A program made the position numbers and the translations under genes. This document shows, piece after piece, positions 7,785 through 36,844 of a stretch of 38,792 nt of DNA. Source of the DNA: an uncultured Atribacterota bacterium (GTDB taxonomy: Bacteria; Atribacterota; Atribacteria; Atribacterales; Atribacteraceae); contig CAYSWT010000006.1 of assembly GCA_964434845.1 (NCBI GenBank), forward strand, positions 1-38,792, written 5' to 3'. The notes under the pieces were generated by a model. It ran no database searches and was not told the DNA's origin. It worked only from the letters and a program-made list of their open reading frames with translations. Positions within the stretch are counted from its first letter, which is position 1; each line of letters opens with the position of its first letter.

Positions 7785-8984
7785 ATGATTCTCTATTGTG
7801 ACTGCTTTTCTGGAATCAGTGGGGACATGTTTCTTGGGGGTTTGATTGATTTAGGGTTACCGGTGGATTATTTGAAATCGGAAATCGCCAAAATGAAAAT
7901 TCCTTTTCAGTTCCATGCCATTACGACCAAAAAGGGATCGATTCAAGCGGTTCAGATTGAAATAGCCGACCCGGAAGAAAGTGAAAGCCATCATGTTGAT
8001 CATCATCACCGCCCCGTAGCTGAGCTGATACGGATTATTCAGGAGAGTAAGCTCTCTCATTCAATAAGGGAAAAGTCAACCACCATCCTCTGGAAAATTG
8101 CACAGGCAGAAGGGAAAATTCACGGACAAAACCCGGAGAATGTCTATCTCCATGAGGTCGGAGGAGTTGATACTTTGATTGATATCACCGGCGTTCTCAT
8201 CGGTGTTGATTATTTGGCAATCAATAAAATCATGGCCTCAATTATCCCCACCGGGTATGGTTTCATCTCCACCAGTCATGGAACCCTCCCCATTCCCGCA
8301 CCGGCAACTGCGGAACTCCTCAAAGGGATTCCGGTGACAGCTGGTCATGTTCCAGGAGAACTAACGACTCCAACCGGTGCTGCCCTCATCGGTACCATGG
8401 CCGAGCAATTTGGTTCTATTCCCCCAATGATCATTGAACGCATCGGCTATGGTGCCGGCCATCGCGACTATGAATCACCAAATGTATTGCGTCTCTTATT
8501 AGGGCGAGATCTCCCCACCTCTCAGCACGAAGAAAATATTCTGATCGAAACCAATATCGATGACATGAGTCCGCAAATCGTCGATTATGTCAGTGAAAAA
8601 CTCTTTGAGGCTGGAGCATTGGACGTTTATACCACGCCCATCTACATGAAAAAACAACGTCCAGCCTTCATGCTGTCTGTTATTGTCCCGCCCAGCCGCC
8701 TTCAGGAATTTAGAGATCTTCTTTTTAAAGAAACCACCACCCTCGGAATCCGAGAAATTTCATTCAAAAAAGTGTCTCTTCCCCGTGAAGATATGGAATT
8801 GGAAACTACTTGGGGAAAAACAAAGGTCAAAATATCTCGTTACCGTGATGGAATAAAACTAACGCCCGAATATGAAGAATGCAAAAGTATCGCCCGACAA
8901 TTTCACCTCCCACTGATTGAAGTTATCCATGCTGTTCGAAACGCAGCGGAAAATAAACTCCGTACCGGTGGAAGGTTCGAATGA
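7785..8984 (+). CDS. larC: Nickel insertion protein LarC (DUF111 family, CTP-dependent nickel chelatase)
   Basis: N-terminal MILYCDCFSGISGDMFLGGLIDLG (hallmark of the LarC/DUF111 family). His-rich patch ESESHHVDHHHRP. 399 aa. Confidence 0.8.
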   Translation: MILYCDCFSGISGDMFLGGLIDLGLPVDYLKSEIAKMKIPFQFHAITTKKGSIQAVQIEIADPEESESHHVDHHHRPVAELIRIIQESKLSHSIREKSTTILWKIAQAEGKIHGQNPENVYLHEVGGVDTLIDITGVLIGVDYLAINKIMASIIPTGYGFISTSHGTLPIPAPATAELLKGIPVTAGHVPGELTTPTGAALIGTMAEQFGSIPPMIIERIGYGAGHRDYESPNVLRLLLGRDLPTSQHEENILIETNIDDMSPQIVDYVSEKLFEAGALDVYTTPIYMKKQRPAFMLSVIVPPSRLQEFRDLLFKETTTLGIREISFKKVSLPREDMELETTWGKTKVKISRYRDGIKLTPEYEECKSIARQFHLPLIEVIHAVRNAAENKLRTGGRFE

Positions 8985-21308: not shown

Positions 21309-23468
21309 CTATTGATACTCTTTATACGTCCCCGGAATAATTTGGTCTTTCTGACATTCAAACTCTGCCCAGAGTCGACCGTCTTCATACCATTTTTTCC
21401 ACTTTCCATCTCTCTGATTGTCTCGGTAATATCCTTCTGATTCCTTATTTCCATTGCGGTAGTATTTCGTCCATAGGCCTTCTTTTTTATCGTTCTGATA
21501 GGTTCCCTTTTGACCGATAACACCGTTTTCATACCAGGATATCCAGGTTCCTACTTTTTTTCCATTTTGATATTCACCTTCGGTCTTTTTCTTGCCATTT
21601 TCAAACCAGGTGGTTTCAATGCCATTTTTCAACCAGGTGCCATCGAGACGAATGATATAGGTATATTGAATTTTGAGCTTTCCATTCGCATACTTTTCCC
21701 GGTAGGTCTGCACCGCCTGATCAGAAGAAACCGGGTTTATTTCAGGAGATGGCATGATGGATGTTTTGATTGTAACCATCATTTTTTGCATAGCAATCAT
21801 TTCCCCCGAACTTATATCAAAAACTTTAACGGTTAATTCAAATTTTCCCGGCTTGCTATATATGTGCTTCATTTCCCCTTCGCTGCTGTCGGTGACCTTC
21901 GATCCGTCTCCGAAATTCCACAGATATTTAATCGCTTTCACCGTATCCGGAAAATTTCCCAGTGACGCTTTAAAGATATATTCTTCTTCGGTTTTTCCAT
22001 TATCGAGCGCTGAAGGTTCAAGAGACAACGCTGGAGTCTCGATTGCCGGGGAAGAAGAGACCGTATCGGTTCCTAAAAGATTGAACATTCCGCTCATAAC
22101 CTCACCCTGAAGCAATCTTTCCTTGTTATCAAACAGTTGGAGTTGTTCGAGGTCGAGATCAGATTGGGTGATCCCTTTCGGTTCTTTCAAAACTTGAAAT
22201 TTGACTACAGCAATGGTGCCACTTTCTTTGGTTAACATTTGATGATTCGCCTGGATAATGGCTATGCTGACTCGGCCGGGTTCAAGAATTTTAGCGCTGG
22301 TGAGCCACTCGGCATTGATTTCACCATGGACTATGCCTAAATATTCCAGGAGATTGGGATCAAAGGAAAACACCATTTCCGCCCGTATCATTTTTTGGTA
22401 TCCGTTAAAATGGATTGGAATATCAATGATATCTTGAGGTTTACCCCCCACAAACGGCAGTGAGAACATCGACACCGGTAGTGGGACGATAGTTGTAAAG
22501 GAAAAAACCAGGGTTTCCATGAGAGGGTTGCCGGTTGAGTCTTTCAATGATCCAAGAGGAAGGACCACTTGATAAATCGTGTCCGGGTTGAGATCATTCT
22601 TCGGTTTGAGAGTCAATTCTTTATTCTGAATTCCTTTCTCAATTGCAATCAGTTTTTGATTGGCATCCTGTACTGTTATAAAATCGTAAGCATTCCCGGG
22701 ATAAATGGTTTCATTGAATTGTATGCGAATGGTCGTGTTCAGTGGTATTTCGATCGCTCCGGAACTGGGTTCGGTGGTCACTACCATAGGAGGTTCAGTA
22801 TCGACCGGTTCAAGGGAAGGCAGCGGAGTAAGGATTGGTAATTGATCGATGATTGGAGTCTGGAGGGGAACGATGAGGATATCAGACAGGGTTGGAATCA
22901 ACGTAGGGCTGGGAGATGGAAGCGCAGTGACCACTTGACCCATACCCGGCAGAGTTGGGGCAACCGGTTCGGTTTCCGGGAAAGATGGCAGGATATCAAT
23001 CGTTGTTGATGACAAAGGGATGGGGCTCTCCTGGGATTGGATGGAAGGTGTCAGTGAGGCTTTCACCAATATTGGTTCGCTCACTGCCACTTCCGGATAA
23101 GTGTCGTCATCACTCGGGAAAAGACGAAATTCGTAGAATCCAGGAACTTCAGGCATGAGAAAAGTCATATTCCCAGCAGGAGAACGGTTTAAATATTGAT
23201 AATCGATGTCTTTTTTATCAGCAATCTTTTGATCACCTCGGGGAGTATCGGCTGGAATCAAACCGATCCAGGCGTCTGAACTCCATTCTGGAGAAGCAAT
23301 ATAGGAAACGACGACTTCTTGACCAGGCGCAGTTTCAGAGGTCGATGCAGTAATCGTGTACGGCGCTGCAGCATGATTCTGGGCGTAAACGACACCAACA
23401 CTGAAAAGCATCCAGAGAATCAACCAGAATAAGAACCATTTAATACCACTGAGATGATATTTTCCCAT
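21309..23468 (-). CDS. Secreted multidomain surface protein (Ig-like domains, PKD domain, C-terminal MORN-variant/YwqK-like repeats)
   Basis: Signal peptide. PKD-like WNFGDGS…KPGKFELTVKVFD. Repeated GxW/Y…YxNGKK…G motifs at the C-terminus typical of MORN-variant repeats. Confidence 0.65.
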   Translation of the reverse strand: MGKYHLSGIKWFLFWLILWMLFSVGVVYAQNHAAAPYTITASTSETAPGQEVVVSYIASPEWSSDAWIGLIPADTPRGDQKIADKKDIDYQYLNRSPAGNMTFLMPEVPGFYEFRLFPSDDDTYPEVAVSEPILVKASLTPSIQSQESPIPLSSTTIDILPSFPETEPVAPTLPGMGQVVTALPSPSPTLIPTLSDILIVPLQTPIIDQLPILTPLPSLEPVDTEPPMVVTTEPSSGAIEIPLNTTIRIQFNETIYPGNAYDFITVQDANQKLIAIEKGIQNKELTLKPKNDLNPDTIYQVVLPLGSLKDSTGNPLMETLVFSFTTIVPLPVSMFSLPFVGGKPQDIIDIPIHFNGYQKMIRAEMVFSFDPNLLEYLGIVHGEINAEWLTSAKILEPGRVSIAIIQANHQMLTKESGTIAVVKFQVLKEPKGITQSDLDLEQLQLFDNKERLLQGEVMSGMFNLLGTDTVSSSPAIETPALSLEPSALDNGKTEEEYIFKASLGNFPDTVKAIKYLWNFGDGSKVTDSSEGEMKHIYSKPGKFELTVKVFDISSGEMIAMQKMMVTIKTSIMPSPEINPVSSDQAVQTYREKYANGKLKIQYTYIIRLDGTWLKNGIETTWFENGKKKTEGEYQNGKKVGTWISWYENGVIGQKGTYQNDKKEGLWTKYYRNGNKESEGYYRDNQRDGKWKKWYEDGRLWAEFECQKDQIIPGTYKEYQ

Positions 23469-23727: not shown

Positions 23728-24096
23728 GTGCCAAACTATATTGAGCCCGTTGAAGAACTCTCCAGTCACGATCGTGACATTCACCGAACTCTCAATAGTC
23801 TAAAAGAAGAGATTGATGCCGTTGAATGGTATCACCAACGAGCTGTGACCACCACCGACATCGATATGAAAGCCATTTTAGTACACAACTTAGAAGAAGA
23901 AATCGAACACGCTTGTATGCTTTTAGAATGGCTCCGTCGGAATATGCCCGGCTGGGATGAACGCTTAAAGATATATTTATTTACCGCCCAATCCATAACT
24001 GCTATTGAAGATCACGCTCCAACCGATTCATCAGAACCAAAAGAACGTTCTTTGGATGATTTGGGAATCGGGAATCTAAAAAATATTTCTCTCTAA
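23728..24096 (+). CDS. Encapsulated ferritin-like protein (EncFtn) cargo with C-terminal encapsulin targeting peptide
   Basis: GTG start with AAAGGAGG RBS. Close match to EncFtn: …AVEWYHQRA…ILVHNLEEEIEHACMLLEWLRRN…YLFT…ITAIE. C-terminal SLDDLGIGNLK matches the GSLxIGxLK cargo-loading peptide. Confidence 0.85.
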   Translation: MPNYIEPVEELSSHDRDIHRTLNSLKEEIDAVEWYHQRAVTTTDIDMKAILVHNLEEEIEHACMLLEWLRRNMPGWDERLKIYLFTAQSITAIEDHAPTDSSEPKERSLDDLGIGNLKNISL

Positions 24097-24163
24097 TACC
24101 AGCATAATCAAATGTCTATCCGTTTGTTGATCGATTCAGTGTTGAATCGGAAAGGGGGATTGT

Positions 24164-24967
24164 ATGAATATTTTAAAACGGGAGTTATCTCCGATAACCA
24201 ACCAAGCCTGGCAGGAGATTGATCGTCAGGCCAAAAGAATATTCCTCACTCAACTCACCGGACGGCGCTTTGTTGAAGTGATTGGACCAAAAGGGTGGGA
24301 TTTTGCCGCTGTGGGATTAGGGCGAATAAATGTTCCGGAAAACCAACGGGATGGAGACGTTCGTTTTGGAATCCATATGGTTCAACCATTAGTCGAAATT
24401 CGAACCTCTTTTCAACTTGATCTGTGGGAATTGGATAATATTACCCGGGGAGCAACCGATATCGATTTTACTCCTCTGATTGACGCTGCCAAACAAACAG
24501 CTCTATTCGAAGAAAAAGCCATTTATCATGGGTTCGAACCGGGAGATATCGATGGGCTTCTTCCGGTGCTTGAATATGAACCCCTTCCCTTCTCCCATGA
24601 CCCGGGGGAGTTTTTCGGTAGCGTGTTAGAAGCGGTTGCCGTTTTAAACGACGCCTCGGTTACCGGTCCTTATGCTTTGGTGATAAACCCACTTCTCTGG
24701 GCTGATCTAGCGGCAACAAAAAGTGGCTATCCATTAAAGAAACTCATCGAAAGCACGATCGAAGGTCAAATCATTCCGGCATCAGTACTGGAAGATGCAT
24801 TAATCGTGTCAACCCGGGGCGGCGATTTTGAATTGATACTCGGTCATGATCTATCGATCGGATACGAAAGCCATGACGATAAATACGTTAACCTTTATTT
24901 TACAGAATCCTTCACTTTTCGCATCCTCGATCCTTCAGTGTTTGTCCGTTTGAGTGTAAGTGATTAG
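24164..24967 (+). CDS. Family 1 encapsulin nanocompartment shell protein (linocin M18-like, HK97 fold)
   Basis: 267 aa. MNILKRELSPITNQAWQEIDRQAK…TQLTGRRFVEV.GPKGWDFAA…TSFQLDLWELDN…GPYALVINP…GGDFELILGHDLSIGYE is collinear with Thermotoga-type encapsulin. Confidence 0.9.
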   Translation: MNILKRELSPITNQAWQEIDRQAKRIFLTQLTGRRFVEVIGPKGWDFAAVGLGRINVPENQRDGDVRFGIHMVQPLVEIRTSFQLDLWELDNITRGATDIDFTPLIDAAKQTALFEEKAIYHGFEPGDIDGLLPVLEYEPLPFSHDPGEFFGSVLEAVAVLNDASVTGPYALVINPLLWADLAATKSGYPLKKLIESTIEGQIIPASVLEDALIVSTRGGDFELILGHDLSIGYESHDDKYVNLYFTESFTFRILDPSVFVRLSVSD

Positions 24968-26213: not shown

Positions 26214-27269
26214 TTAGAAAACAAACCCAGACGTTAAGTTTTTTCCCTGTACTTCTAAAACAACTTCGCTTTTTTGCTGGGGCTGCAATTCCAAAGTAAA
26301 AATGAGTCGATTCGACTCTATTCGATCCAATGATACCGAATGTGAGATCATTTCAAAACTTGGTTGAAGAGGTACAAAAACTTCGATTTTTTTAACTTCT
26401 GATCCCCGGTTGGCAACAATGTAAAGCTTTTTTTCCTGAGTATCATAAAGAACCACTTGGCCTTTATTATTGTAGACCTGGTTGATCTTATCCTGTTTCA
26501 GTATTTTTTCCTCGACGGTCAGATCGTTACTTTTCCCAATTTCCATTTCCAGATCGGGTGATGTGCCCGAAATGAAGTTTTCGCCTAAAAAAACCACACC
26601 TGAAGTGGATTTTTCAAAATATTCCGATTTGGCAGGAAAGAGGATATAGGTCGGAACGGCGAGTTTCCAGAAAAAATGGACATCAGTATCGCCATAATTG
26701 AATGAAGCGTAACGCGATACTTTCTCAGCGGTGATCACCTGAAATTCCTGAATTTTCAAGCGCTTCGTTTCATAGGGCTCAAGCTGGAGCGTGAATTCCT
26801 TTCCAGCAATCACAAAATTGGCATTGCGAATGACTTCTTGCCCCTGATTGGTAATATCGGCAAAGAGAAAACCTGATGGTGCAGCTTTCTCTTTTTCCCA
26901 GTAGTATTGGTAGAGATAATTCAAAGTGAGTGATGATAAAGGGTAAGTGAAATGAATTCGCCCTTCAGTCGGTGAATCGGCAAGAATGGTCACTGTACTC
27001 CCTCGATCTGAGGAAGGAGTTAAAATGCTATTCAAAACCCCACCTTCGACCTGAATAAATATTTCATCATCGCTTAAGGCGTTCGGTTTTTCCCAGGAAT
27101 AAACATTCTCTCCGGATTGGAGTTGAACCATCCAGGTTTCTCGAAGATAGAATTGGGAATCTCCGGCAAATATCAAAATTTCTTCCGGATTCTTTTCGAG
27201 AATCACTTCTTGGGCGGATGCCCATCTCCAGCAAAAAAAGATCAAGAATATCACCAGGAGTTTTTTCAT
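26214..27269 (-). CDS. Secreted hypothetical protein, DUF4139-like (paralog of the next gene)
   Basis: Start refined to MKKLLVIF (GGGAGGA 6 nt upstream). ATGA overlap with the upstream gene's stop. Signal peptide. Confidence 0.5.
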   Translation of the reverse strand: MKKLLVIFLIFFCWRWASAQEVILEKNPEEILIFAGDSQFYLRETWMVQLQSGENVYSWEKPNALSDDEIFIQVEGGVLNSILTPSSDRGSTVTILADSPTEGRIHFTYPLSSLTLNYLYQYYWEKEKAAPSGFLFADITNQGQEVIRNANFVIAGKEFTLQLEPYETKRLKIQEFQVITAEKVSRYASFNYGDTDVHFFWKLAVPTYILFPAKSEYFEKSTSGVVFLGENFISGTSPDLEMEIGKSNDLTVEEKILKQDKINQVYNNKGQVVLYDTQEKKLYIVANRGSEVKKIEVFVPLQPSFEMISHSVSLDRIESNRLIFTLELQPQQKSEVVLEVQGKNLTSGFVF

Positions 27270-28453
27270 GACCATTCCTCCCGAAATTCATAATTTAATA
27301 AAATAGTTTCCTTTTTCCCCGGGTTGATAGTCATTTTCAAGTGAGCTCGGCCATTTTCCCATTGCCACTGCTCTCCTCCTCCGGTTATTTTCGCCCCCGG
27401 GGGCAATAATTCGATGAAGTCTAATTGTTTATCGGTTTCTCCCCAGTTCTTAATATCAAACTGAATCACCTTCTCCGACCAAAATCCAGCTATATCCCGA
27501 TCTTCATTGAAGTCGACTTTCTTTCGAAGATAACCAGATTCGATTCGATCCACCTGCAGGGTACGAATTGATCCGATGGGAATTTCAAATTCTTCCTGGC
27601 TTCGCACGAGAGGGAATTCAAATGTCCCCACCACCGAATTTTCAGTTCCAAAGATGGTAATCAATCCCTGGGGGAGAGGATCACCCTCGCTTTTCATTTT
27701 CAATATCCGATTGATTGACCCTTCTTCAATGCGGATCAGTTCCTTCACTGGAAACTTTCGTAAACCGGGAAAGACCTGCAGGACGCTCGGACCAGGCAAG
27801 TCTATAACATAAGGTAAATGAAAAACTTGATATTCTGACACTCTTTCCATGATCATCGGTTTTACCTTTTCGACCGCTATTTGGGATTGAACCCGATCGG
27901 AAGCAAGTGGAGCTTCTTCGGTCATCATTCCTCCTTTGTCACCTTCGAAATGAAAAGTAGGCTTCCCTAATAACCAGCTTAAATGGAGATTTTTCCAGGT
28001 AAAATTATGTTGGTTCGAGAGAAAAACTGAGGGATAGAGGTAAAAAAGCTGTTCCTTTTCATCCCAAACCCCCTGATATCTTTCTCTCCAGTCAAAACCA
28101 CTCACGAAAAAGGATATAAGAAAGGGAAACGAACCCGCTTTTTGTGATTCGAGCACCATCAGGTATCCTGAGAAATCGGTGGTGCTGATGGTTTTTAATG
28201 AAGTCGATGGATCGAAAGGATGCAGGTAAAATCTCTCGCGAAGAAGATTCTGTCCGGATAGAAAGAAACGATTTTCCCCATGATTGAGAAGCAGCGCTAC
28301 CTTCTCTACTGCCCAGGCCCGGTCAATATTCTGATAAACCGTGAGCCACACCTCATCGGGCATTATGGTTTGGGAGAGGAGAGCCTGAACCGATCCCGAA
28401 TATCCCAGTGCAATCACCAGGATTATTCCGAAAAAAAGAACAATCCTTCTCAT
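27266..28453 (-). CDS. Secreted hypothetical protein, DUF4139-like
   Basis: Start refined to MRRIVLFF (AAGGAGGTGG 5 nt upstream). Signal peptide. C-terminal G.ITIFGTENSVVGTFEFPLV…IPIGSIRTLQVDRIE pattern. Confidence 0.5.
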   Translation of the reverse strand: MRRIVLFFGIILVIALGYSGSVQALLSQTIMPDEVWLTVYQNIDRAWAVEKVALLLNHGENRFFLSGQNLLRERFYLHPFDPSTSLKTISTTDFSGYLMVLESQKAGSFPFLISFFVSGFDWRERYQGVWDEKEQLFYLYPSVFLSNQHNFTWKNLHLSWLLGKPTFHFEGDKGGMMTEEAPLASDRVQSQIAVEKVKPMIMERVSEYQVFHLPYVIDLPGPSVLQVFPGLRKFPVKELIRIEEGSINRILKMKSEGDPLPQGLITIFGTENSVVGTFEFPLVRSQEEFEIPIGSIRTLQVDRIESGYLRKKVDFNEDRDIAGFWSEKVIQFDIKNWGETDKQLDFIELLPPGAKITGGGEQWQWENGRAHLKMTINPGKKETILLNYEFREEWS

Positions 28454-28509
28454 TTTTCCACCTCCTTGCTGAAACATTAATTCTCCACCATTAAGATGAT
28501 CCTCAATAT

Positions 28510-28585
28510 GGATCGACCGCCATGCTGCTTGGCAGCACCATGTGAGGAATGAAAATCAAATGAGCCACATGCCATGGCATGTGGC
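28510..28585 (+). repeat. Copy 4 of the structured repeat family, plus a 22-nt perfect palindrome
   Basis: GGATCGACCGCCATGC-TGCTTGGCAGC-ACCATGTGAGGAATGAAAATC, then GCCACATGCCATGGCATGTGGC (28564-28585). Confidence 0.75.
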
Positions 28586-28804
28586 CCGTTACTTGTTACT
28601 GTAATTAATAATAGTGTGAAACTTTGAAGCTAAAAATTCAAGTCCTATTCCCCCTCCTTATTGGTGATTGATAACTATTTTACCCGAATATGATCGTTCC
28701 TACCATCCCCTGGTGAATGGAACAGTGATACGGGTAAATCCTTTTTAGCGATTTTCAAGATAAACACTCCTTATTTTTAGTATTTTCAGTGGGAAATGAA
28801 TATA

Positions 28805-29335
28805 CTACTTGGCCACCACTGGTTGTGTGACTTTCATGATTTTCCCGCCATCAGTTGATTCAACGGCAGTACCAACCAAATTTTCTCCAGAAGTGGGAAC
28901 TTTTTTGCTTATTCCCGCTGGTTGCACTTTGGGGTCAAACCAAACTTCAGCAATTAAATTTTGAGTTTCGGGGAATGAAGAAACCGAAAGCGTCGCTGTG
29001 AAACAGGCATTGCTGATTTCAACGGTTTTCTCTTTTATGATTGCCTGTTCGGCATTGTCACCTCCATTGGTAACCAATACCTTCAATTTGCCCCCAGCAG
29101 GCAGATCGGTTTCACCCATCACCATAACCTTGCCGTTTTCTATAAAGGCTTTGGTGATCAGTAATTTCTGATATATTTCCAGGTCTTTTGAGGAGTCACT
29201 CTTTTTTTTGGCCGAATCTTGATCCTGACAACAGGGTGGAAGCTTGGTCTGCTTTTCCAAACCGAACAGACTGGTGGTTGCAACCAGAACAACGAGCATG
29301 AATACCAAAATGAATAGAAATGGTAATTTTTTCAT
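28805..29335 (-). CDS. Secreted or membrane-anchored hypothetical protein with Cys-Cys motif
   Basis: N-terminal hydrophobic segment. PPCCQDQD shortly after it. No recognised domain. Part of the copper locus. Confidence 0.45.
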   Translation of the reverse strand: MKKLPFLFILVFMLVVLVATTSLFGLEKQTKLPPCCQDQDSAKKKSDSSKDLEIYQKLLITKAFIENGKVMVMGETDLPAGGKLKVLVTNGGDNAEQAIIKEKTVEISNACFTATLSVSSFPETQNLIAEVWFDPKVQPAGISKKVPTSGENLVGTAVESTDGGKIMKVTQPVVAK

Positions 29336-29375
29336 AATGTGTTTCCTTCCCCCGGCGATTTTAATTAAGCCGGAT

Positions 29376-30767
29376 TTAATTTACGACTTCGATCGAGCCG
29401 GTAATCATTCCCATCCAGCAGCTAAATTTAAATTTACCGGCTACCTGTGGGGTAAACTCCATTACACTGGTTTTTCCATGAGAAAGTCCGATTTGTTTTG
29501 GAAAAAAATCTTTAGCAATAATGGCATTGGTGCAGCCACTGGTTCCGACATCTGTGACTTCCCAACGGACCGGAATCCCCTTTTTGACTGTAAATGAATT
29601 GGGTATATATCCACGCGCCGATGCTTCCATTTTTATTAATTGCGTTCCTTCGATCATAGGTTCAACGGTCATGGCCAGATTCGCGTTCGATTTTCCCGAT
29701 ACAGCTGTGGGATTCAAAACAAGATCGTCCAAACTTGGCAGACCCATAACATTCAATTGTGAATTGACGTTAAATAAGACAAAAAATATTACCACCATAC
29801 CGGCTATTTTTAAAAAAGTGTTTGCGTAACGAGGCTTTTCCAAAAATCGGAGACTGGAAATGCCAATGCTCAACAGTGGGGGAAGAGTACCCAGAGCAAA
29901 ACAGAAGAGAAGCAGTGAACCCTGAAGAAAACTCCCGGAAAGGAGAGCCAAACCCTGGACGGTTATGGTAAAACCACAGGGAAGAAAAAAGGTCAGTGCT
30001 CCCATCACCAGCGGCATATAACGACCCCGGAAGCGACTTTCATCCACCAGATAACGTGTCATAAAACGGGGTAAGGTAACCCGGAAACCTTGTAAACGCT
30101 TTACTCCTAACATTTGAAGACCCAACATCGCCATGAGGACTGAAACCATGATGACCAAAATCGAGGAAAAACGCAATGAAAGTGAAAACTGCCTTCCTAT
30201 CAATCCCAGTACACCTCCGCCCCCGGCAAAGGCAAGTAATCGTCCAACATTAAAAAGAAAGTGGGGTTCCATTTTTTTGAGAGGAGTATCCCGGTGAGAG
30301 TACAAATCATTCCATTGTTTGGCGAGGGAAAGGACCAATCCCCCAACCAGCGCCGCGCAGCTGGATACGCCGGCTATGAGACCAAATAGAAAAAAAGTGA
30401 TCAGTGAGGATGTGGAATCAACCGAGACAAATTGAGTAAAGCCGGTTCTTTCGAGGAGGAGGAAAGCAACAATCACCATGATGGCAAAACCCAAAGTCAG
30501 TAACCGGTTTTTTTTCTCGTTCTCGAAAGACCGCTCGGAAAAACGATACCCATCATCCTGAAAGAGATTGTTTAGCTGTTCAAGGTCGGGGTAAGTGTCT
30601 TCACTTTTGAGCACAACCTTCCCATCCTTTACTGAAGCATCGGCATAAACGATTCCTTGGCATTGTAGTAATTTTTTCTCGATAAAAATTTCACAGGCCG
30701 GACAATGCATCCCCTGGACATAATACGCCTTTGACTTCGCTGAAAACGTGGGTTTTTTCACTGACAA
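29376..30767 (-). CDS. Fusion protein: N-terminal HMA metal-binding domain, polytopic Cys-containing membrane domain (DsbD_2/CcdA-like), C-terminal cupredoxin-like domain
   Basis: GMHCPAC HMA motif. About 6 TM helices with SSCAAL and LPCGF cysteines. C-terminal …PVRWEVTDVGTSGCTNAI…GKFKFSCWMGMITGSIEV resembles cupredoxin_1-type domains. Confidence 0.6.
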   Translation of the reverse strand: MSVKKPTFSAKSKAYYVQGMHCPACEIFIEKKLLQCQGIVYADASVKDGKVVLKSEDTYPDLEQLNNLFQDDGYRFSERSFENEKKNRLLTLGFAIMVIVAFLLLERTGFTQFVSVDSTSSLITFFLFGLIAGVSSCAALVGGLVLSLAKQWNDLYSHRDTPLKKMEPHFLFNVGRLLAFAGGGGVLGLIGRQFSLSLRFSSILVIMVSVLMAMLGLQMLGVKRLQGFRVTLPRFMTRYLVDESRFRGRYMPLVMGALTFFLPCGFTITVQGLALLSGSFLQGSLLLFCFALGTLPPLLSIGISSLRFLEKPRYANTFLKIAGMVVIFFVLFNVNSQLNVMGLPSLDDLVLNPTAVSGKSNANLAMTVEPMIEGTQLIKMEASARGYIPNSFTVKKGIPVRWEVTDVGTSGCTNAIIAKDFFPKQIGLSHGKTSVMEFTPQVAGKFKFSCWMGMITGSIEVVN

Positions 30768-30776
30768 ACCACCCCA

Positions 30777-31262
30777 TTATTGATCGGCTTTAAAAAAGAG
30801 CATGAGGTTTTCCAGATCGTTTTGAAAAAGAATGATCTTCCCGTCTCTGACTTCAAGCTGTTCGCTGATGGGCACCGGATTACAATTCCCTTTTCCAGTC
30901 GCAATTTTATTTAGCGGATAAGAATTGCCACAAACATTACAAATGATCAGATCCTTTTCTTGATGAAAACCTTCTTGGGCTGGATAACACAGTTGGCAGG
31001 CATTGGCTGCAGCCCGGAAATTCCCTTTTTGATCCTTCACTATAAAAAAATAGATTGTCAATCCCGAGTATAAAGTGGCATGAAAAAAATGTATTGTATC
31101 ATCTACAAAGATCTCTGTGGAAAGTGTAATTTCACCATTCATAATCGATACATTTTGCCCCTTCTGTCCAAGGAACAATTCGTCCGATTCCGCTGATACA
31201 AATGGAATCATGATCAATAGCACTACTAAAGTCCATCCTATATACCTGGTTGGGAGCTGCAC
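30777..31262 (-). CDS. Membrane-anchored protein with CxxC-x16-CxxC motif (DUF2318-like)
   Basis: Signal/anchor segment. ACQLCYPA…CNVCGNSY. Family assignment is tentative. Confidence 0.4.
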   Translation of the reverse strand: MQLPTRYIGWTLVVLLIMIPFVSAESDELFLGQKGQNVSIMNGEITLSTEIFVDDTIHFFHATLYSGLTIYFFIVKDQKGNFRAAANACQLCYPAQEGFHQEKDLIICNVCGNSYPLNKIATGKGNCNPVPISEQLEVRDGKIILFQNDLENLMLFFKADQ

Positions 31263-31438
31263 CGAATATTCCTCCTCTAATCCTTTTTGAATTTTTGACT
31301 CTCTTGGGTATTATACGTGAAAATAATTGTATAGTATACTGATATAGTAAGTATTTATTAACCTTCAGTTTATCTCCACTATTTCTGTTTTCTTGACTTA
31401 TTCTTTATATACTATTAATATTAGTATCATAGTAATCT
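31263..31438. promoter_or_regulatory. AT-rich divergent promoter region of the copper locus with candidate operator palindromes
   Basis: 8-bp palindrome AGTATACT (~31331-31338). ATACTA-n7-TAGTAT (~31411-31429) just upstream of the copA RBS. Confidence 0.3.
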
Positions 31439-34400
31439 TTGAAGGGTGGGATTCCGATGAAGAAAAAAATTATACTTCAAATAGATGGTATGACCTGTCC
31501 CAGTTGTGAAAAGATCGTCACTCAAACCCTCCAGGAGCTTCCGGGAACAGCTGAAATCACCATCAGTAAAGATGAAAGTCGAGGAATTTTAAAGATCGAT
31601 CCGGCTCAAGTATCTCTATCAAAAATCATTACTGCTATCGAGGAAGTCGGATATCATGCCCATCTCATAAACGAAACCGACCTGACCGAAGATTACCAAG
31701 GAAACCAAGCCCCTTCTCTACCGATTTGCCCTTTTGTTTCCGCCAAAGATGGAAAAAAGACCATGAAAAGTGAAACTGAATCAAACCAAAATCAGCGGGT
31801 CACATTTTCTCTCTCAGGTATGCATTGCGCTTCCTGTGCGGCTCTCATCGAGCGGTCACTCACCAAAACCCCGGGGGTGGTGCGGGCAACAGTGAACTTT
31901 GCCGCTGAGAAAGCAACCGTATTTTTTGACGGAGCGTCGACCAGCCCGGCAGAGCTCATCGAAGCCGTCCAAAAAGCAGGTTATAATGCCCAGGTTATCA
32001 CCTCTGCTGATCGGGAAAAAGAAAATCGCCGCAAGCAGGCAGACATCGCTGCCCAATGGCGAACCTTCCTTATCAGCCTCTTTTTGAGTCTTCCCATGAT
32101 GTACTTTATGCTCTTGGACTTCTTCAAATGGCTCCCTGGCGCCTATAGTTTTCCTCCCTATTTCGGAATTCTGTCTTTCATTTTGGCTACCCCGGTTCAA
32201 TTCGTCATCGGGTTTCGCTTCTACCAGGGAATGTGGTCAAGCTTACGGATGAAAACATTTAACATGGATAGCCTCATCGCCATCGGTACCACTGTTGCCT
32301 ACGGTTATAGCCTCATTCACTATATCAGCCATATACTGGCCAACAGCAGCGTATTAGGGTTATTTGGCCGTAAGGTCCCCGAGCTGTACTTTGAAACCTC
32401 GGCTTTTCTGATCACTTTTGTCATATTAGGAAAATACTTGGAAGCCCATGCCAAAGGGCGAACCTCGGATGCCATTCAGAAATTGTTAAAACTCAAGGCT
32501 AAAACTGCCCGGGTACGACGAAACGGTGCGATTATTGATATTCCGGTTGAAAAAGTCGAAAAAGGAGATATGATCATCGTCCGTCCCGGAGAGAAAATTC
32601 CGGTCGATGGTGAGATCATTACTGGAAACTCATCGGTCGATGAATCGATGATCACCGGGGAAAGCATCCCGGTAGAAAAGGGACCGGGCGATACTGTCAT
32701 CGGAGCTACTATGAATATTGTAGGAAGTTTCGAGTTTATTGCCACCCGGGTGGGATCGGAAACTATGCTCGCCCAGATCGTTCAGCTCATCGAGGACGCT
32801 CAGAGTTCCAAAGCACCAATTCAAGCTTTCGCCGATCGGATCGCTGCCTGGTTTGTACCCTCAGTGCTGGCCATTGCTGGTGGAACTTTCATCGTCTGGT
32901 ATTTTATCCTTGGCTCGACCCTCACCTATTCATTAATGGCTATGACGTCAGTTATCGTCATCGCTTGTCCCTGCGCACTCGGGTTGGCAACTCCAACCGC
33001 GATTATGGTCGGTACCGGTAAGGGGGCTGAACACGGTATCCTGGTTAAAGGAGGAGAACCACTGGAAGCAGCCCGCACTATCAACACTGTCGTCTTCGAT
33101 AAAACTGGAACAGTGACCAACGGGAAACCGGTGGTGACCGATGTTGTCTCGTTTGGAAATCTCTCATCGGATATGATATTACAGATTGCCGGAAGTCTGG
33201 AAAAGTTATCCGAACACCCCCTCGCTCAATCTATCTATCAAAATGCTCAAGAAAAAAATCTATCTTTAAACGAGGTAGATCATTTCCATGCCCTCCCGGG
33301 ACGGGGAGTCGAAGGCAAAATCAATGGCCAGCATTATACGATTGGTAACCGAAAGCTTTTATCTGAACACCAACTTCCGGTTTCTGAATTCGTCGAACAA
33401 AACATCTCCAACTTAGAAGAACAGGGGAAAACAGTAATGATTCTTGCTGACCCCAATTCACTTCTCGGAGCAGTTGCCGTTGCCGACACTCCCAAGGAAA
33501 CATCCAAAAAAGCAATTGATCAATTAAAAAAGCTGGGTATGACCTTGTTTATGATAACCGGCGACAATCAGCGTACTGCCCGTGCTGTCGCCCGCGAAGT
33601 CGGTATTTCAGAGGTCCTGGCTGAAGTACTCCCCGAAGAGAAGTCGAAGGAAATAAAAAAACTCCAACAAAGCGGGAAAAAAGTTGCTATGGTTGGTGAC
33701 GGCATCAACGATGCACCGGCGATCGCTCAAGCCGATCTTGGAATCGCCATGGGATCGGGAACCGACGTGGCCATGGAAACTGGAGACATCATTCTGGTTA
33801 AAAACAACCTCGGTGACGTAGCAACCGCGTTGGAACTCTCTCGAGAAACCATGGGGAAAATAAAACAAAATCTCTTTTTTGCGCTTTTTTATAACTTGAT
33901 CGGTATTCCCATTGCCGCCCGAGCCTTTGCTACTTTCGGACTGCTGCTCAACCCCGAATTAGCCGGTCTGGCCATGGCTTTGAGCTCAATTTCGGTGGTT
34001 TCCAATTCTCTCCTGCTGCGCACTTTTCGTCCCCGTCGAAAAAACTATCTCTCCATGGCAGCTCCTCTCATCATGATCCTTTTGTTTACCTGGATGTTCG
34101 TCGGTTTTGCCCGCTTCAGTTCCATTATGGGGACGGTGATGACACAGCTTCCTCCAGAGATAAATCAGGCGTTTGAAAAATTCCTGAACAACGGACAGGC
34201 GATGGTGACTTTTTCATCTACCGGAATACCAAAACTATTCTTTACCTCCGATTCGTTGAAAAGCCCAATGCTATTGGTTCAAAAGGGCTTATTTCCACCC
34301 GAAAAAGATGAAATGCTTCTTGGAGCTTCCGAAGCTACCATGATGATTCAGGAAAAACTGTTTCAAAACCCGGGTGACTCTATTCCAAATTTTTTTGGCA

Positions 34401-34825
34401 TTCCCTTGATGAGAGTGGTTGGCATCTTGAAACCGACTGGGACTATTCTGGATATGTTTCACTTTATCACTCCGGAAACATCCAAGAGCATTTCCGGATC
34501 GTCTAAGTTGACCATCGGTTTCGCCAAAGGAACTCCAAAATTGTTCTATACCCTTGAAAAGAACACCATTCCCGCCTTGCTCCAACCTTTTATCTCAAAG
34601 GATGCGCTCCAATCGGTAATTCTAAATGGGAAAACCCATCTTCCACTCATACTTGGATACAATGAGGGTCAGATGATGATTTCTGAAAAGCTTTTAAAAA
34701 ACGCTGGAGATATCCTTCCTGACTTCTTTGGTCAAGACGTGGTTGTTGCCAAAATTCTTCCCAAAACCAACACTTTGTTCGATGAATTTCATTTTGTAAC
34801 CAAGGAGTTTGTGGTGAAAAAATAA
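31439..34825 (+). CDS. copA: Cu(I)-translocating P1B-type ATPase (CopA-like) with two N-terminal HMA domains, an extra C-terminal TM helix and a novel tandem-duplicated ~110-aa C-terminal domain
   Basis: GMTCPSCE and GMHCASCA motifs. CPC ([12 protein letters not shown]). [13 protein letters not shown]. After the canonical end (…[12 protein letters not shown]) an additional helix [21 protein letters not shown]. Then two homologous units (…GIPKLFFT…[20 protein letters not shown]…DMFHFITPE and …GTPKLFYT…[20 protein letters not shown]…DEFHFVTKE). Confidence 0.85.
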
Positions 34826-36304: not shown

Positions 36305-36844
36305 TTATTCAATAAACACCGCTGAATACCAATTTTGTGGTTCGTCTTCGTTTTTCAAGGTTTCGAGCGGGAGACCGAATTTTCTGACGGTTTTATAAAC
36401 ATCTATGCCTACACTATGGAACGCCGGACGGGCTTGTTTGGGATTGACACATTCCTTACCTTTGAACCCAGCACACTCCTTACAGAGAGCGCAATCACTT
36501 AATGAAAAAGCAAAATAATAGCCATCCAGGAATGCCTGCCGCTCAATAGCAAAGGAAATTTTTTGAGATTGTACTTTATCGGTGGAATGAATAATAATTC
36601 CCCAGGAATATTGTCTAAAAATTTTTTTATATTCCCAGGGTTTCAGTGACCCCGACCGTGAGGGACAGGTGTTCCCTTTCCCCCAATCGTTACATCCAAA
36701 CATGCATTTCAAAATGGTGCGTGGATCAAATTTGATATCTTTCACCTGGAAGAGGACAGCGTGATCAGCGCCCATATTCAATGCTAAATCGAGATAGGTT
36801 TTATTAAAATTATTTATCAAAGAATTTTCCATTGTGTATTTCAA
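36305..36844 (-). CDS. DUF2284-family predicted metal-binding protein
   Basis: CMFGCNDWGKGNTCP and CALCKECAG cysteine clusters characteristic of the family. 179 aa. Confidence 0.55.
   Translation of the reverse strand: MKYTMENSLINNFNKTYLDLALNMGADHAVLFQVKDIKFDPRTILKCMFGCNDWGKGNTCPSRSGSLKPWEYKKIFRQYSWGIIIHSTDKVQSQKISFAIERQAFLDGYYFAFSLSDCALCKECAGFKGKECVNPKQARPAFHSVGIDVYKTVRKFGLPLETLKNEDEPQNWYSAVFIE

What the first reader, a model, noticed from the sequence alone, without database searches (positions are those of the whole stretch)
28805..31262. Divergent partner operon of copA: HMA / Cys-containing membrane domain / cupredoxin fusion plus two small secreted Cys-motif proteins
The protein at 29376-30767 fuses three modules normally found separately. 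These are a CopZ-like HMA domain (GMHCPAC), a polytopic domain with membrane-embedded cysteines (SSCAAL, LPCGF; DsbD_2/CcdA-like), and a C-terminal cupredoxin-like beta-sandwich (FKFSCWMGM). This looks like an electron- or copper-relay across the membrane (a possible Cu(II)-to-Cu(I) reductase or copper-delivery machine). Next to it, 30777-31262 has a zinc-ribbon-like CxxC-x16-CxxC after a membrane anchor. Downstream, 28805-29335 has a PPCC motif after a signal anchor. Together with the unusual CopA, this is a coherent but unconventional copper homeostasis island. No CsoR/CopY/CueR regulator or CopZ is visible.
Basis: partly seen in the sequence, partly recalled or inferred. Interest (0 to 1): 0.7.

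Follow-up and report, generated by a model that had tools for sequence, protein, structure and literature searches.

The report
Conserved CopA-partner copper-handling membrane operon
This is a real three-gene operon next to a copper-export pump; its main protein joins an inside copper-binding domain, a cysteine-bearing membrane domain and an outside copper-binding domain, and belongs to a widespread, copper-regulated family that nobody appears to have tested experimentally.

Summary
The 463-aa protein (29376-30767, minus strand) has three domains. An HMA domain (GMHCPAC) is predicted cytoplasmic. A 7-helix DsbD_2/DsbD-superfamily core carries two invariant membrane cysteines. The C-terminal cupredoxin is predicted to face outwards.

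The fusion is not exotic: at least 3,941 database proteins and at least 548 species genomes carry it, mostly Patescibacteria. In 67 of 80 related loci it sits beside a CopA-type ATPase, and in 43 of 80 behind a Cu(I)-type csoR. The window has no regulator gene. It does have two CsoR-box-like ATACT-N9-AGTAT sites, found only in the divergent promoter region.

Best reading: a CopA accessory combining a tethered CopZ-like donor inside, a CcdA-like thiol conduit, and a CupA-like Cu(I) acceptor outside. The main rival is a Cys-to-Cys Cu(I) relay through the membrane. No experimental characterisation was found. Interest is moderate.

The parts
30777..31262 (-). Gene 1: secreted or anchored FtrD-like/DUF2318 five-cysteine protein (161 aa). 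It has a signal peptide ending ...VSA|E and the motif C89xxC92-x15-C108xxC111-x15-C127.
   Evidence: Pfam PF10080 scores 77.4 bits against a cut-off of 26.3. The Cys pattern fits the published DUF2318 motif. There is one N-terminal hydrophobic segment. C92, C108, C111 and C127 are invariant and C89 nearly invariant (>=90%) across 16 relatives.
29376..30767 (-). Gene 2: HMA / 7-TM DsbD_2 / CupA-like cupredoxin fusion (463 aa; 461 aa in public gene calls).
   Evidence: Supported.
30537..30737 (-). HMA domain (residues ~11-77), GMHC22PAC25, predicted cytoplasmic.
   Evidence: Pfam HMA scores 29.2 bits. It hits CopZ, ATP7B and MerP structures. The AF2 model shows a beta-alpha-beta-beta-alpha-beta pattern. 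C22 and C25 are present in all 77 non-truncated orthologs.
29748..30506 (-). Membrane core (residues ~88-340): one extra TM helix plus a six-helix DsbD_2 core. C137 (SSCAAL) and C264 (LPCGF) are invariant.
   Evidence: DsbD_2 scores 101.5 bits and DsbD_TM 32.2 bits. hhalign to E. coli DsbD gives probability 73% and E 3e-5, and C264 aligns with the DsbD TM4 catalytic Cys. Both Cys are conserved in 81 of 81 orthologs. Positive-inside count is 12.1 K+R inside against 1.9 outside, in 81 of 81.
29379..29654 (-). CupA-type cupredoxin domain (residues ~372-463) with C412 ... C450-W-M452-G-M454, predicted extracytoplasmic.
28805..29335 (-). Gene 3: secreted or anchored 176-aa protein of a rare family. 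An LPPCCQ motif follows the signal anchor, then a beta-rich domain with GxTDLPxG.
   Evidence: No Pfam or NCBIfam family matches. Only 23 cluster representatives among 1.84 billion score E<=1e-3. Motif conservation is shown. It holds the same position in L085, L087 and L031.
28562..28587 (-). Terminator-like hairpin (11-bp stem, 7 GC pairs, T-rich tail) that closes the operon.
   Evidence: Found by the consensus scan. This is a consensus match only.
31336..31354 (.). Candidate operator 1, ATACTGATATAGTAAGTAT (ATACT-N9-AGTAT), overlapping the promoter core of the minus-strand operon. The conserved AGTATACT palindrome and the ACGTATAAT -10 block lie beside it.
   Evidence: The pattern occurs only twice in the 38.8-kb window, both times in this intergenic region, against 0.03 expected. 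It has the same 5-9-5 geometry as the ATACC-N9-GGTAT CsoR boxes upstream of csoR in related loci. Two relatives keep it with one mismatch.
31409..31427 (.). Candidate operator 2, ATACTATTAATATTAGTAT, overlapping the -10 of the copA promoter (TTGACT-17-TAATAT, 31393-31421).
   Evidence: Supported. Its arms are less well conserved in relatives.
31439..34825 (+). Divergent Cu(I)-type P1B ATPase CopA with two N-terminal HMA domains and the CPC, YN and MALSS selectivity motifs. It also has an unusual C-terminal extension (~34040-34822): a ninth TM helix followed by a tandem ~110-aa repeat predicted to lie outside the cell.
   Evidence: Pfam and NCBIfam assignments are, and the motifs can be read in the translation. 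For the extension: a TM segment at residues 873-891, an internal repeat with E 1e-15, and homologous extensions in 8 other fusion-linked CopAs. No Pfam family matches it.

Best explanation
The operon encodes the outer-face and chaperone accessories of the neighbouring Cu(I) pump CopA.

The central protein has seven membrane helices. Its N-terminal HMA domain sits in the cytoplasm and acts as a membrane-tethered, CopZ-like Cu(I) donor or docking module for CopA. Its C-terminal CupA-type cupredoxin sits outside the membrane and binds Cu(I) through Cys412, Cys450, Met452 and Met454, capturing copper as it leaves CopA. The DsbD/CcdA-superfamily core between them uses its two buried cysteines (C137 and C264) to pass reducing equivalents from cytoplasmic thioredoxin to the outside. 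This keeps, or re-makes, the thiolate ligands of the outer copper sites under copper and oxidative stress. The outer sites are the CupA-like domain, the secreted five-Cys FtrD-like protein, and the LPPCC protein.

Expression is probably copper-induced through a CsoR-type repressor encoded elsewhere, acting on two ATACT-N9-AGTAT boxes.

Shown in silico: domain identities, ligand conservation, topology, linkage to CopA and CsoR in relatives, and the operator-like sites. Inferred: the direction and nature of what crosses the membrane (electrons versus Cu(I)), Cu(I) hand-over from CopA, and the roles of genes 1 and 3.
For: - Domain identities are confirmed.
- All six cysteines and both methionines are conserved in 81 of 81 orthologs, apart from truncated contigs.
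- Topology is N-in, C-out. There are seven helices in the AF2 secondary structure, and positive-inside counts are 12.1 against 1.9 K+R in 81 of 81 orthologs.
- The membrane core is homologous to DsbD. C264 lies on the TM4 catalytic Cys, and C137 lies in the equivalent first core helix.
- A CopA-type ATPase lies within 7 kb in 67 of 80 related loci, 26 of them within 100 bp downstream.
- A Cu(I)-type CsoR lies upstream in 43 of 80 loci; 42 of 43 have the C..HxxxC fingerprint and many have ATACC-N9-GGTAT boxes.
- Anchored extracytoplasmic thioredoxin-like CxxC modules occur in the same operons in 8-12 of 80 loci. They are often fused to the FtrD-like or CupA-like domain, and they need a CcdA/DsbD-type reductant supply. 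The fusion's core is the only DsbD/CcdA-type gene family that recurred among the clustered neighbours.
- HMA-1TM-FtrD-like proteins exist (P0252, P0264). This shows the HMA can pair with an outward Cys domain without any conduit, so it behaves as a chaperone or docking module.
- CupA's Cys pair reduces Cu(II) and then needs an unidentified re-reductant (PMC5646241).
- COG2836-type HMA/DsbD_2/DUF2318 proteins were computationally placed in the CsoR regulon of gut Firmicutes (PMC4938975).
- From general knowledge, not tested here: DsbD-like ScsB/ScsC systems protect against copper stress.
Against: - No experiment exists for any member of this family.
- The first membrane Cys lacks the 'PC' context of CcdA/DsbD and falls outside the hhalign block, about four residues offset.
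- No solved structure resembles the modelled core, and both AF2 models are only of moderate confidence (pLDDT 68-71).
- The window itself has no Trx-like partner.
- The near-universal fusion of an HMA domain to the core is explained more simply if Cu(I) itself is relayed.
- Sources name some family members 'UreH domain-containing', and UreH is a family of nickel permeases. The domain could therefore carry metal ions and not electrons.
- The operator assignment rests on geometry and rarity only, and no csoR gene is in the window.
Confidence: 0.45

Rival explanations
1. The protein is a Cu(I) ligand-exchange relay, or secondary transporter. Cu(I) itself moves from HMA CxxC to the membrane Cys pair (C137/C264) and on to the outer CupA-like site, or in the reverse direction. 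The logic resembles the mercury path MerP to MerT to NmerA. On this reading a DsbD-type fold has been repurposed from electrons to a thiophilic metal.
For: - All three Cys stations are invariant and are always fused in this order.
- The HMA hits MerP and MerTP models.
- Conserved polar residues in the core are soft or neutral (Cys, Met219, Gln, Asn, Ser/Thr), with no His, Asp or Glu.
- The source name 'UreH domain-containing protein' links the family to nickel permeases.
- 42 of 80 orthologs add an outer Cys-cluster tail that looks like a Cu(I) sink.
Against: - Passive or pmf-driven Cu(I) export would duplicate the ATP-driven CopA encoded next door. Import would be harmful under the CsoR-derepressed conditions implied.
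- HMA-1TM-FtrD-like proteins show the HMA-in, Cys-out pairing without a conduit.
- Trx-like outer partners point to thiol redox traffic.
- The MerTP model is matched only over the HMA, at 28.6 bits against a cut-off of 180.
Confidence: 0.3
2. The system is an extracytoplasmic iron-handling module of the Ftr/Fet type. The cupredoxin would act like FtrB, the FtrD-like protein would be the electron partner, and the membrane core would be the permease, with copper only as a cofactor.
For: - PF10080 is otherwise known from the C. jejuni fetMP-fetABCDEF iron-uptake cluster.
- An encapsulated-ferritin pair lies 4 kb away.
Against: - There is no Ftr1/FetM or P19 gene in the neighbourhood.
- The ligand set Cys...CxMxM is the CupA Cu(I) site.
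- The conserved partners are CopA and Cu(I)-type CsoR, not Fur-regulated or iron genes.
- The encapsulin genes lie beyond a terminator and three other genes.
Confidence: 0.07
3. The module detoxifies or imports another thiophilic metal (Hg, Ag or Cd), not copper.
For: HMA domains and Cys relays also serve Hg(II), as shown by the MerP and MerTP hits. CopA-type pumps also move Ag(I).
Against: - The partner pump has the Cu(I)/Ag(I) P1B-1 motifs CPC, YN and MxxSS and scores as a Cu ATPase in TIGR01511.
- The regulators in relatives carry the Cu(I) C-H-C fingerprint.
- No merA, merR or merT-like genes were seen.
Confidence: 0.05
4. The membrane domain is only an anchor that joins two independent chaperone domains, and its cysteines are structural.
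For: Membrane tethering alone is known to matter for CupA. HMA-1TM-FtrD-like proteins use a plain single-helix anchor.
Against: A single helix would be enough for anchoring. Instead, about 60 core positions are invariant across 15-23 sequences at roughly 50% overall identity, including both Cys, Pro263, Gln218, Met219, Asn333 and Asn335.
Confidence: 0.05

Closest known systems
CupA / CopA N-terminal cupredoxin domain of Streptococcus pneumoniae (PDB 4F2E, 4F2F)
   Different: CupA is held by one helix on the cytoplasmic face and feeds a cupredoxin domain on CopA. Here the domain follows a seventh TM helix and is predicted to be outside. It is fused to HMA and a DsbD-like core. The partner CopA has HMA N-terminal domains, not cupredoxin ones.
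CcdA / DsbD / ScsB transmembrane thiol-disulfide electron conduits
   Same: The core matches Pfam DsbD_2 and DsbD_TM. It is a six-helix core with one conserved Cys in the first and one in the fourth core helix, and C264 aligns with the DsbD TM4 catalytic Cys. Extracytoplasmic Trx-like partners occur in related operons. From general knowledge, ScsB/ScsC is linked to copper stress.
   Different: The first Cys is in an SSC context, not PC, and is offset. The N-terminal extension is an HMA metal-binding domain. The fused outer domain is a cupredoxin, not a thioredoxin fold. No redox activity has been shown.
MerP-MerT-NmerA mercury relay and MerTP fusions
   Same: An HMA CxxC domain combined with membrane cysteines forms a chain of thiol pairs across the membrane for a thiophilic metal. 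The HMA region hits MerP and MerTP models.
   Different: The membrane domains are unrelated. The MerTP model is matched only over the HMA and far below its cut-off. The HMA is inside, not outside. The context is CopA and CsoR, not MerR and MerA.
FetA (Cj1660 / 1651) DUF2318 domain of the Campylobacter jejuni fetMP-fetABCDEF iron-uptake cluster
   Same: It has the same PF10080 domain with the CxxC...CxxC...C signature. It faces outwards and is accompanied by membrane thioredoxins in its own system.
   Different: FetA is an 8-TM protein with a YHS domain in an iron-uptake cluster. Here the domain is a small secreted protein in a CopA-linked operon. This context contradicts the statement that DUF2318 'almost always' maps to Fet-type clusters.
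CopZ-type metallochaperones and csoR-copZ-copA operons
   Same: It has a GMxCxxC HMA domain. In relatives the operon is csoR-X-copA, with canonical CsoR boxes.
   Different: X is a 7-TM fusion, not a soluble CopZ. About 15 of 80 loci also carry a separate CopZ.

Membership tests
HMA (PF00403) Cu(I) metallochaperone domain | Profile match above the curated cut-off, and a GMxCxxC loop on a beta-alpha-beta-beta-alpha-beta fold | tested here: met
   It scores 29.2 bits against 24.8. The GMHC22PAC25 motif is present. The AF2 secondary structure is E-H-E-E-H-E for residues 11-77. It hits CopZ and ATP7B structures.
HMA (PF00403) Cu(I) metallochaperone domain | Binds Cu(I) and exchanges it with a P1B ATPase | not testable with these tools
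   This needs metal titration and transfer assays.
DsbD/CcdA superfamily (PF13386 DsbD_2, PF02683 DsbD_TM) | Profile match above the cut-off | tested here: met
   DsbD_2 scores 101.5 bits against 24.9, and DsbD_TM 32.2 against 27.1. hhalign to E. coli DsbD gives probability 73% and E 3e-5.
DsbD/CcdA superfamily (PF13386 DsbD_2, PF02683 DsbD_TM) | One conserved Cys in core TM1 and one in core TM4 | tested here: met
   C137 and C264 are conserved in 81 of 81 orthologs. C264 aligns with DsbD C285 (mature numbering). C137 is in the equivalent helix but lies outside the aligned block.
DsbD/CcdA superfamily (PF13386 DsbD_2, PF02683 DsbD_TM) | Both Cys in a Pro-Cys context, as in CcdA and DsbD | tested here: not met
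   The second is LPC264, but the first is SSC137.
DsbD/CcdA superfamily (PF13386 DsbD_2, PF02683 DsbD_TM) | Six-helix core with both ends outside | tested here: met
   There is one extra N-terminal helix plus six core helices. Positive-inside counts fit N-in, C-out for the whole protein in 81 of 81 orthologs. This is an in-silico result only.
DsbD/CcdA superfamily (PF13386 DsbD_2, PF02683 DsbD_TM) | Thioredoxin-dependent electron transfer to an outer thiol partner | not testable with these tools
   Only context is available: Trx-like outer modules occur in related operons.
CupA-type Cu(I) cupredoxin chaperone | Cupredoxin fold with Cys ... Cys-x-Met-x-Met binuclear Cu(I) ligands | tested here: met
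CupA-type Cu(I) cupredoxin chaperone | Cytoplasm-facing, delivering Cu(I) to a cupredoxin domain at the N-terminus of CopA | tested here: not met
   The domain is predicted to be extracytoplasmic. The partner CopA has two HMA domains and no cupredoxin.
FtrD-like / DUF2318 (PF10080) | Profile match and the CxxC-x(13-15)-CxxC-x(14-15)-C signature | tested here: met
   It scores 77.4 bits against 26.3. The cysteines are C89, C92, C108, C111 and C127. The published motif is quoted.
FtrD-like / DUF2318 (PF10080) | Encoded within a FetMP/P19-Ftr1 iron-uptake cluster | tested here: not met
   The neighbours are copA, the fusion and unknown genes. No Ftr1 or P19 gene was seen. In relatives the gene abuts copA.
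TauE/SafE sulfite exporter (the name given by public sources) | Match to the TauE/SafE profile | tested here: not met
   No TauE family appears among Pfam hits at E<=0.1, and no NCBIfam model reaches its cut-off. The database name looks like a carry-over.
MerT/MerP or MerTP mercury transport | Full-length match to MerTP, or a MerT membrane domain | tested here: not met
   NF033556 scores 28.6 bits against a cut-off of 180, and matches over the HMA only.
CsoR regulon member | A csoR gene in the locus, or a canonical ATACC-N9-GGTAT box | tested here: inconclusive
   There is no csoR anywhere in the window. Two ATACT-N9-AGTAT sites with the same geometry occur only in the divergent promoter region, against 0.03 expected. 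In relatives, 43 of 80 loci have csoR and many have canonical boxes.

The most novel reading that the evidence does not exclude
The DsbD-type fold has been repurposed as an ATP-independent, cysteine-to-cysteine Cu(I) translocation pathway, running from HMA CxxC to the buried Cys pair to the outer CupA-like site. It would work alongside CopA and form a previously unrecognised class of copper transporter. It would be the main copper-handling device of Patescibacteria and several other phyla.
Probability: 0.3. Interest if true: 0.8.

Novelty: new variant of a known kind. Interest (0 to 1): 0.55.

Why it matters
Two questions in bacterial copper biology remain poorly answered: what receives Cu(I) on the outer face of CopA in bacteria that lack Cus or CueO-type systems, and how outward-facing copper-binding thiols are kept reduced. 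This family is a conserved partner of CopA in at least hundreds of species, and it is the middle gene of csoR-X-copA in much of the Candidate Phyla Radiation. Databases label it 'sulfite exporter', which hides its role. It offers a concrete, testable candidate for an outer Cu(I) acceptor fused to its own reductant or metal conduit. It also gives DUF2318/FtrD-like domains a second genomic context, copper, beside iron uptake.

Tried and rejected
- **Single-sequence search with the FtrD-like protein.** It gave only 8 hits because of the word index. A profile search was needed.
- **Family assignment for the 176-aa protein and the CopA C-terminal extension.** Pfam and NCBIfam found nothing.
- **Source organism.** Cluster look-ups returned no organism names, and the species is not among the GTDB representatives. 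The taxon, and whether it is monoderm or diderm, stay unknown.
- **Literature.** Searches for COG2836, DsbD_2, Cupredoxin_1/PF13473, PF13386/IPR039447 and TauE+copper+cupredoxin+CopZ found no experimental study of this architecture.
- **Readings considered and rejected.** A blue-copper electron-transfer role fails because the ligands are the CupA Cu(I) set and not His/Cys/His/Met. A sulfite-exporter role fails because there is no TauE match. A mer system fails. A CopY/BlaI operator fails because the intergenic region has no TACAnnTGTA box and the window has no BlaI-family gene.
Full report
**1. Observation**

The three minus-strand ORFs are 30777-31262 (161 aa), 29376-30767 (463 aa) and 28805-29335 (176 aa). 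The divergent 1128-aa copA (31439-34825) is also present as described. The gene gaps are 9 and 40 bp. A terminator-like hairpin at 28587-28562 follows the third gene, so the three genes form one unit. An identical protein with the same neighbours occurs on at least 11 public metagenome contigs.

**2. Domain identities**

The 463-aa protein passes the curated cut-offs for four Pfam models:

| Domain | Residues | Bits | Cut-off |
|---|---|---|---|
| HMA | 15-69 | 29.2 | 24.8 |
| DsbD_2 | 124-330 | 101.5 | 24.9 |
| DsbD_TM | 121-321 | 32.2 | 27.1 |
| Cupredoxin_1 | 372-458 | 29.2 | 27 |

No NCBIfam model reaches its cut-off. No TauE/SafE profile is matched, although sources name the family 'sulfite exporter TauE/SafE'.

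The C-terminal domain is specifically the CupA type.
- phmmer hits S. pneumoniae CupA (2MRY/4F2E) at E 1.3e-8, and the CopA N-terminal cupredoxin (4F2F).
- 'SGC412TNA' aligns with CupA's first Cys, and 'FSC450WM452GM454' with its CxMxM.
- In CupA these residues form the high- and low-affinity Cu(I) sites, and the Cys pair can also reduce Cu(II) (PMC5646241).

So this is a Cu(I) thiolate/thioether site, not a type-1 electron-transfer centre.

The 161-aa protein is PF10080 FtrD-like/DUF2318 (77 bits). It has a cleavable-looking signal peptide and the cysteines C89xxC92-x15-C108xxC111-x15-C127. This matches the motif described for the periplasmic DUF2318 domain of C. jejuni FetA.

The 176-aa protein has no family. 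Only 23 of 1.84 billion cluster representatives match at E<=1e-3. Its LPPCCQ motif is conserved only among the closest relatives. A GxTDLPxG beta-rich domain is shared more widely.

**3. Topology**

The AF2 secondary structure gives an HMA fold, one helix (88-107), six further helices with a break at P263-C264, and then a beta sandwich. Across 81 orthologs the loops predicted to be inside carry 12.1 K+R on average, against 1.9 outside. Inside exceeds outside in 81 of 81. The HMA is therefore cytoplasmic and the CupA-like domain extracytoplasmic. From general knowledge, this fits a six-helix DsbD/CcdA core whose ends both face outwards, plus one extra N-terminal helix.

**4. The membrane cysteines**

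C137 (SSCAAL) and C264 (LPCGF) are invariant in 81 of 81 orthologs. So are C22, C25, C412, C450, M452 and M454 wherever the contig is complete.

A profile comparison with E. coli DsbD gives probability 73% and E 3e-5. It aligns LPC264 with the SPC catalytic cysteine of TM4. C137 lies in the helix equivalent to the one carrying DsbD's first catalytic Cys, but about four residues offset and outside the aligned block.

Structure searches with a core-only model were uninformative.

**5. How common it is, and what it travels with**

The fusion is widespread.
- At least 3,941 proteins match at E<=1e-5 with the same three Pfam domains. They come mostly from Patescibacteria, with some from Actinomycetota and other phyla.
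- The window's own species is not among them; the best identity is about 54%.

The 80 best loci show the following:

| Neighbour of the fusion | Loci (of 80) | Notes |
|---|---|---|
| CopA-type ATPase within 7 kb | 67 | 69 loci have >=3 kb of downstream sequence; 26 have copA within 100 bp downstream on the same strand; L068 is divergent, like the window |
| CsoR-family gene (PF02583) | 43 | Always upstream on the same strand; 28 within 50 bp |
| BlaI/CopY-family repressor | 10 | Plus M56-like partners in 10 loci |
| FtrD-like gene | 16 | Usually abutting copA |
| Standalone CopZ-like gene | about 15 | |

Of the 43 CsoR proteins, 42 have the Cu(I) C...HxxxC fingerprint. At least 17 of 42 upstream regions carry ATACC-N9-GGTAT boxes.

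Two closer relatives (65-70% identity; L085 and L087) keep the window's exact layout: a divergent long copA, then FtrD-like, the fusion, and the 176-aa homolog. An Atribacteria MAG (L031) keeps the FtrD-like, fusion, 176-aa order.

PMC4938975 had already inferred computationally that HMA/DsbD_2/DUF2318 membrane proteins (COG2836) and DUF2318 proteins belong to the CsoR regulon of gut Firmicutes. No experimental study of this architecture was found.

**6. Regulation in the window**

No CsoR or BlaI homolog is encoded anywhere in the 38.8 kb, and the nearby genes are not regulators.

The 176-bp divergent intergenic region does contain two 19-bp sites, ATACT-N9-AGTAT, at 31336-31354 and 31409-31427. 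These are the only two occurrences in the window, against 0.03 expected, and none of 100 shuffles reached two. They have the same 5-9-5 geometry and the same outer ATAC/GTAT arms as the CsoR boxes of relatives.
- One site overlaps the promoter core of the minus-strand operon, next to an ACGTATAAT block conserved in three genomes.
- The other overlaps the copA -10 (TTGACT-17-TAATAT).

A CsoR-type repressor encoded elsewhere is the likeliest reader of these sites. This is an inference.

**7. Clues to mechanism from relatives**

- In related operons the FtrD-like domain is often preceded, after a signal anchor, by a thioredoxin/glutaredoxin-like CxxC module (L009, L023, L026, L032) or by a CuA/COX2-like cupredoxin (L014, L047).
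- L039 has an anchor, a Trx-like module and a CupA-like cupredoxin. Standalone anchored Trx-like proteins also occur. In total 8-12 of 80 loci carry such a module.
- From established knowledge of CcdA/DsbD systems, outward-facing thioredoxin-like proteins need a CcdA/DsbD-type reductant conduit. The fusion's core is the only DsbD/CcdA-type gene family that recurred among the clustered neighbours in these loci.
- Some FtrD-like proteins have the layout HMA, one TM helix, FtrD-like (P0252, P0264). The 'HMA inside, Cys domain outside' pairing therefore exists without any possible conduit. This suggests the HMA is a CopZ-like or CopA-docking module and not an obligatory first station of a relay.
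- 42 of 80 orthologs add an outer Cys-cluster tail (GCGCGG-like), and some Actinomycetota versions add a second cupredoxin.

**8. Best explanation and rivals**

With high confidence (about 0.85), this is a copper (Cu(I)) homeostasis accessory operon of CopA.

For the mechanism I favour the following, at about 0.45:
- a tethered CopZ-like HMA inside;
- a CcdA-like thiol conduit;
- an outer CupA-like Cu(I) acceptor whose Cys ligands are kept reduced, together with those of the FtrD-like and LPPCC proteins.

The main rival, at about 0.3, is that Cu(I) itself is relayed Cys-to-Cys through the core, in a Mer-like manner. It explains the universal HMA fusion more simply. It is also compatible with the 'UreH domain' naming of some members, since UreH is a family of nickel permeases.

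Iron (Ftr-like), other-metal and passive-anchor readings are unlikely, for the reasons given under the rival explanations.

**9. The 'unusual CopA'**

The pump has Cu(I)-type CPC, YN and MALSS motifs and two HMA domains. After TM8 it carries a ninth hydrophobic helix (residues 873-891) and about 235 further residues. These form a tandem repeat of roughly 110 aa (E 1e-15) with no Pfam match. Homologous extensions occur on CopAs next to the fusion in eight other loci. If the ninth helix spans the membrane, this domain lies outside and could be a docking platform for the outer partners. That is speculation.

**10. Verdict**

The window's copy is an ordinary member of a widespread, database-visible family whose copper regulation is inferred computationally. 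That family is, as far as I could find, experimentally uncharacterised. I rate it a new variant of known copper-homeostasis and DsbD-type systems, of moderate interest.

Noticed in passing
window 34040-34822 (CopA residues ~868-1128): CopA carries an extra predicted TM helix (873-891) followed by a tandem ~110-aa repeat (E 1e-15) with no Pfam family. Homologous extensions occur on CopAs adjacent to the fusion gene in L055, L056, L057, L065, L067, L078, L080 and L082. It may be an extracytoplasmic docking domain.
   Followed up: partly
window 26214-28477 (two minus-strand ORFs, 353 and 403 aa): Two proteins with an N-terminal hydrophobic segment and no Pfam family lie just downstream of the operon's terminator. 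They are syntenic in the relative L085 (395 and 353 aa). Their function is unknown, and any link to the copper operon is untested.
   Followed up: partly
window 23728-24967: An encapsulated-ferritin (EncFtn-like) and encapsulin (Linocin_M18) gene pair. It is also syntenic in L085.
   Followed up: no
L009 2300-3085, L023 9956-10744, L026 11567-12478, L032 9054-9833, L014 9732-10637, L047 4091-4975, L039 9165-10037: In Patescibacteria copper operons the FtrD-like domain is fused, after a signal anchor, to a thioredoxin-like CxxC module or to a CuA/COX2-like cupredoxin. L039 instead fuses the Trx-like module to a CupA-like cupredoxin. This gives DUF2318 a copper and thiol-redox context beside the published iron-uptake one.
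   Followed up: partly
proteins P0223, P0252, P0264: Their architecture is HMA, a single TM helix, then an FtrD-like domain. A cytoplasmic copper-binding domain is tethered to an outward five-Cys domain with no conduit between them.
   Followed up: partly
orthologs in L005-L084 and P0006-P0116: 42 of 80 orthologs end in an extracytoplasmic Cys-cluster tail (GCGCGG-like). Actinomycetota versions (~620-640 aa) add a second CupA-like cupredoxin and a C-terminal CPCC/CC motif. Some have an extra, degenerate N-terminal HMA-like domain.
   Followed up: partly
database names: Public sources call the family 'sulfite exporter TauE/SafE family protein' or 'UreH domain-containing protein'. No TauE profile is matched here, so the sulfite-exporter name looks like an annotation carry-over.
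   Followed up: yes
L085 10984-11346: The 65%-identity relative has an additional 120-aa lipoprotein-like cupredoxin with an NNCCTGC motif right after the 176-aa homolog. The window lacks it.
   Followed up: no
L065 6002-6952, L082 12961-13338 and 8 other loci: Ten related loci use a BlaI/CopY-family repressor (PF03965), and ten carry an M56/M48-like membrane protease. These recur alongside the CsoR-bearing loci, which suggests two alternative regulatory solutions for the same module.
   Followed up: partly
window 36305-36844 and 7785-8984: A DUF2284 'predicted metal-binding protein' lies 1.5 kb beyond copA. A LarC-type nickel-insertion protein (PF01969) is encoded elsewhere in the window.
   Followed up: no
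window 21309-23468: A large surface protein with Big_5, Cohesin, PKD and MORN_2 domains, also syntenic in L085.
   Followed up: no
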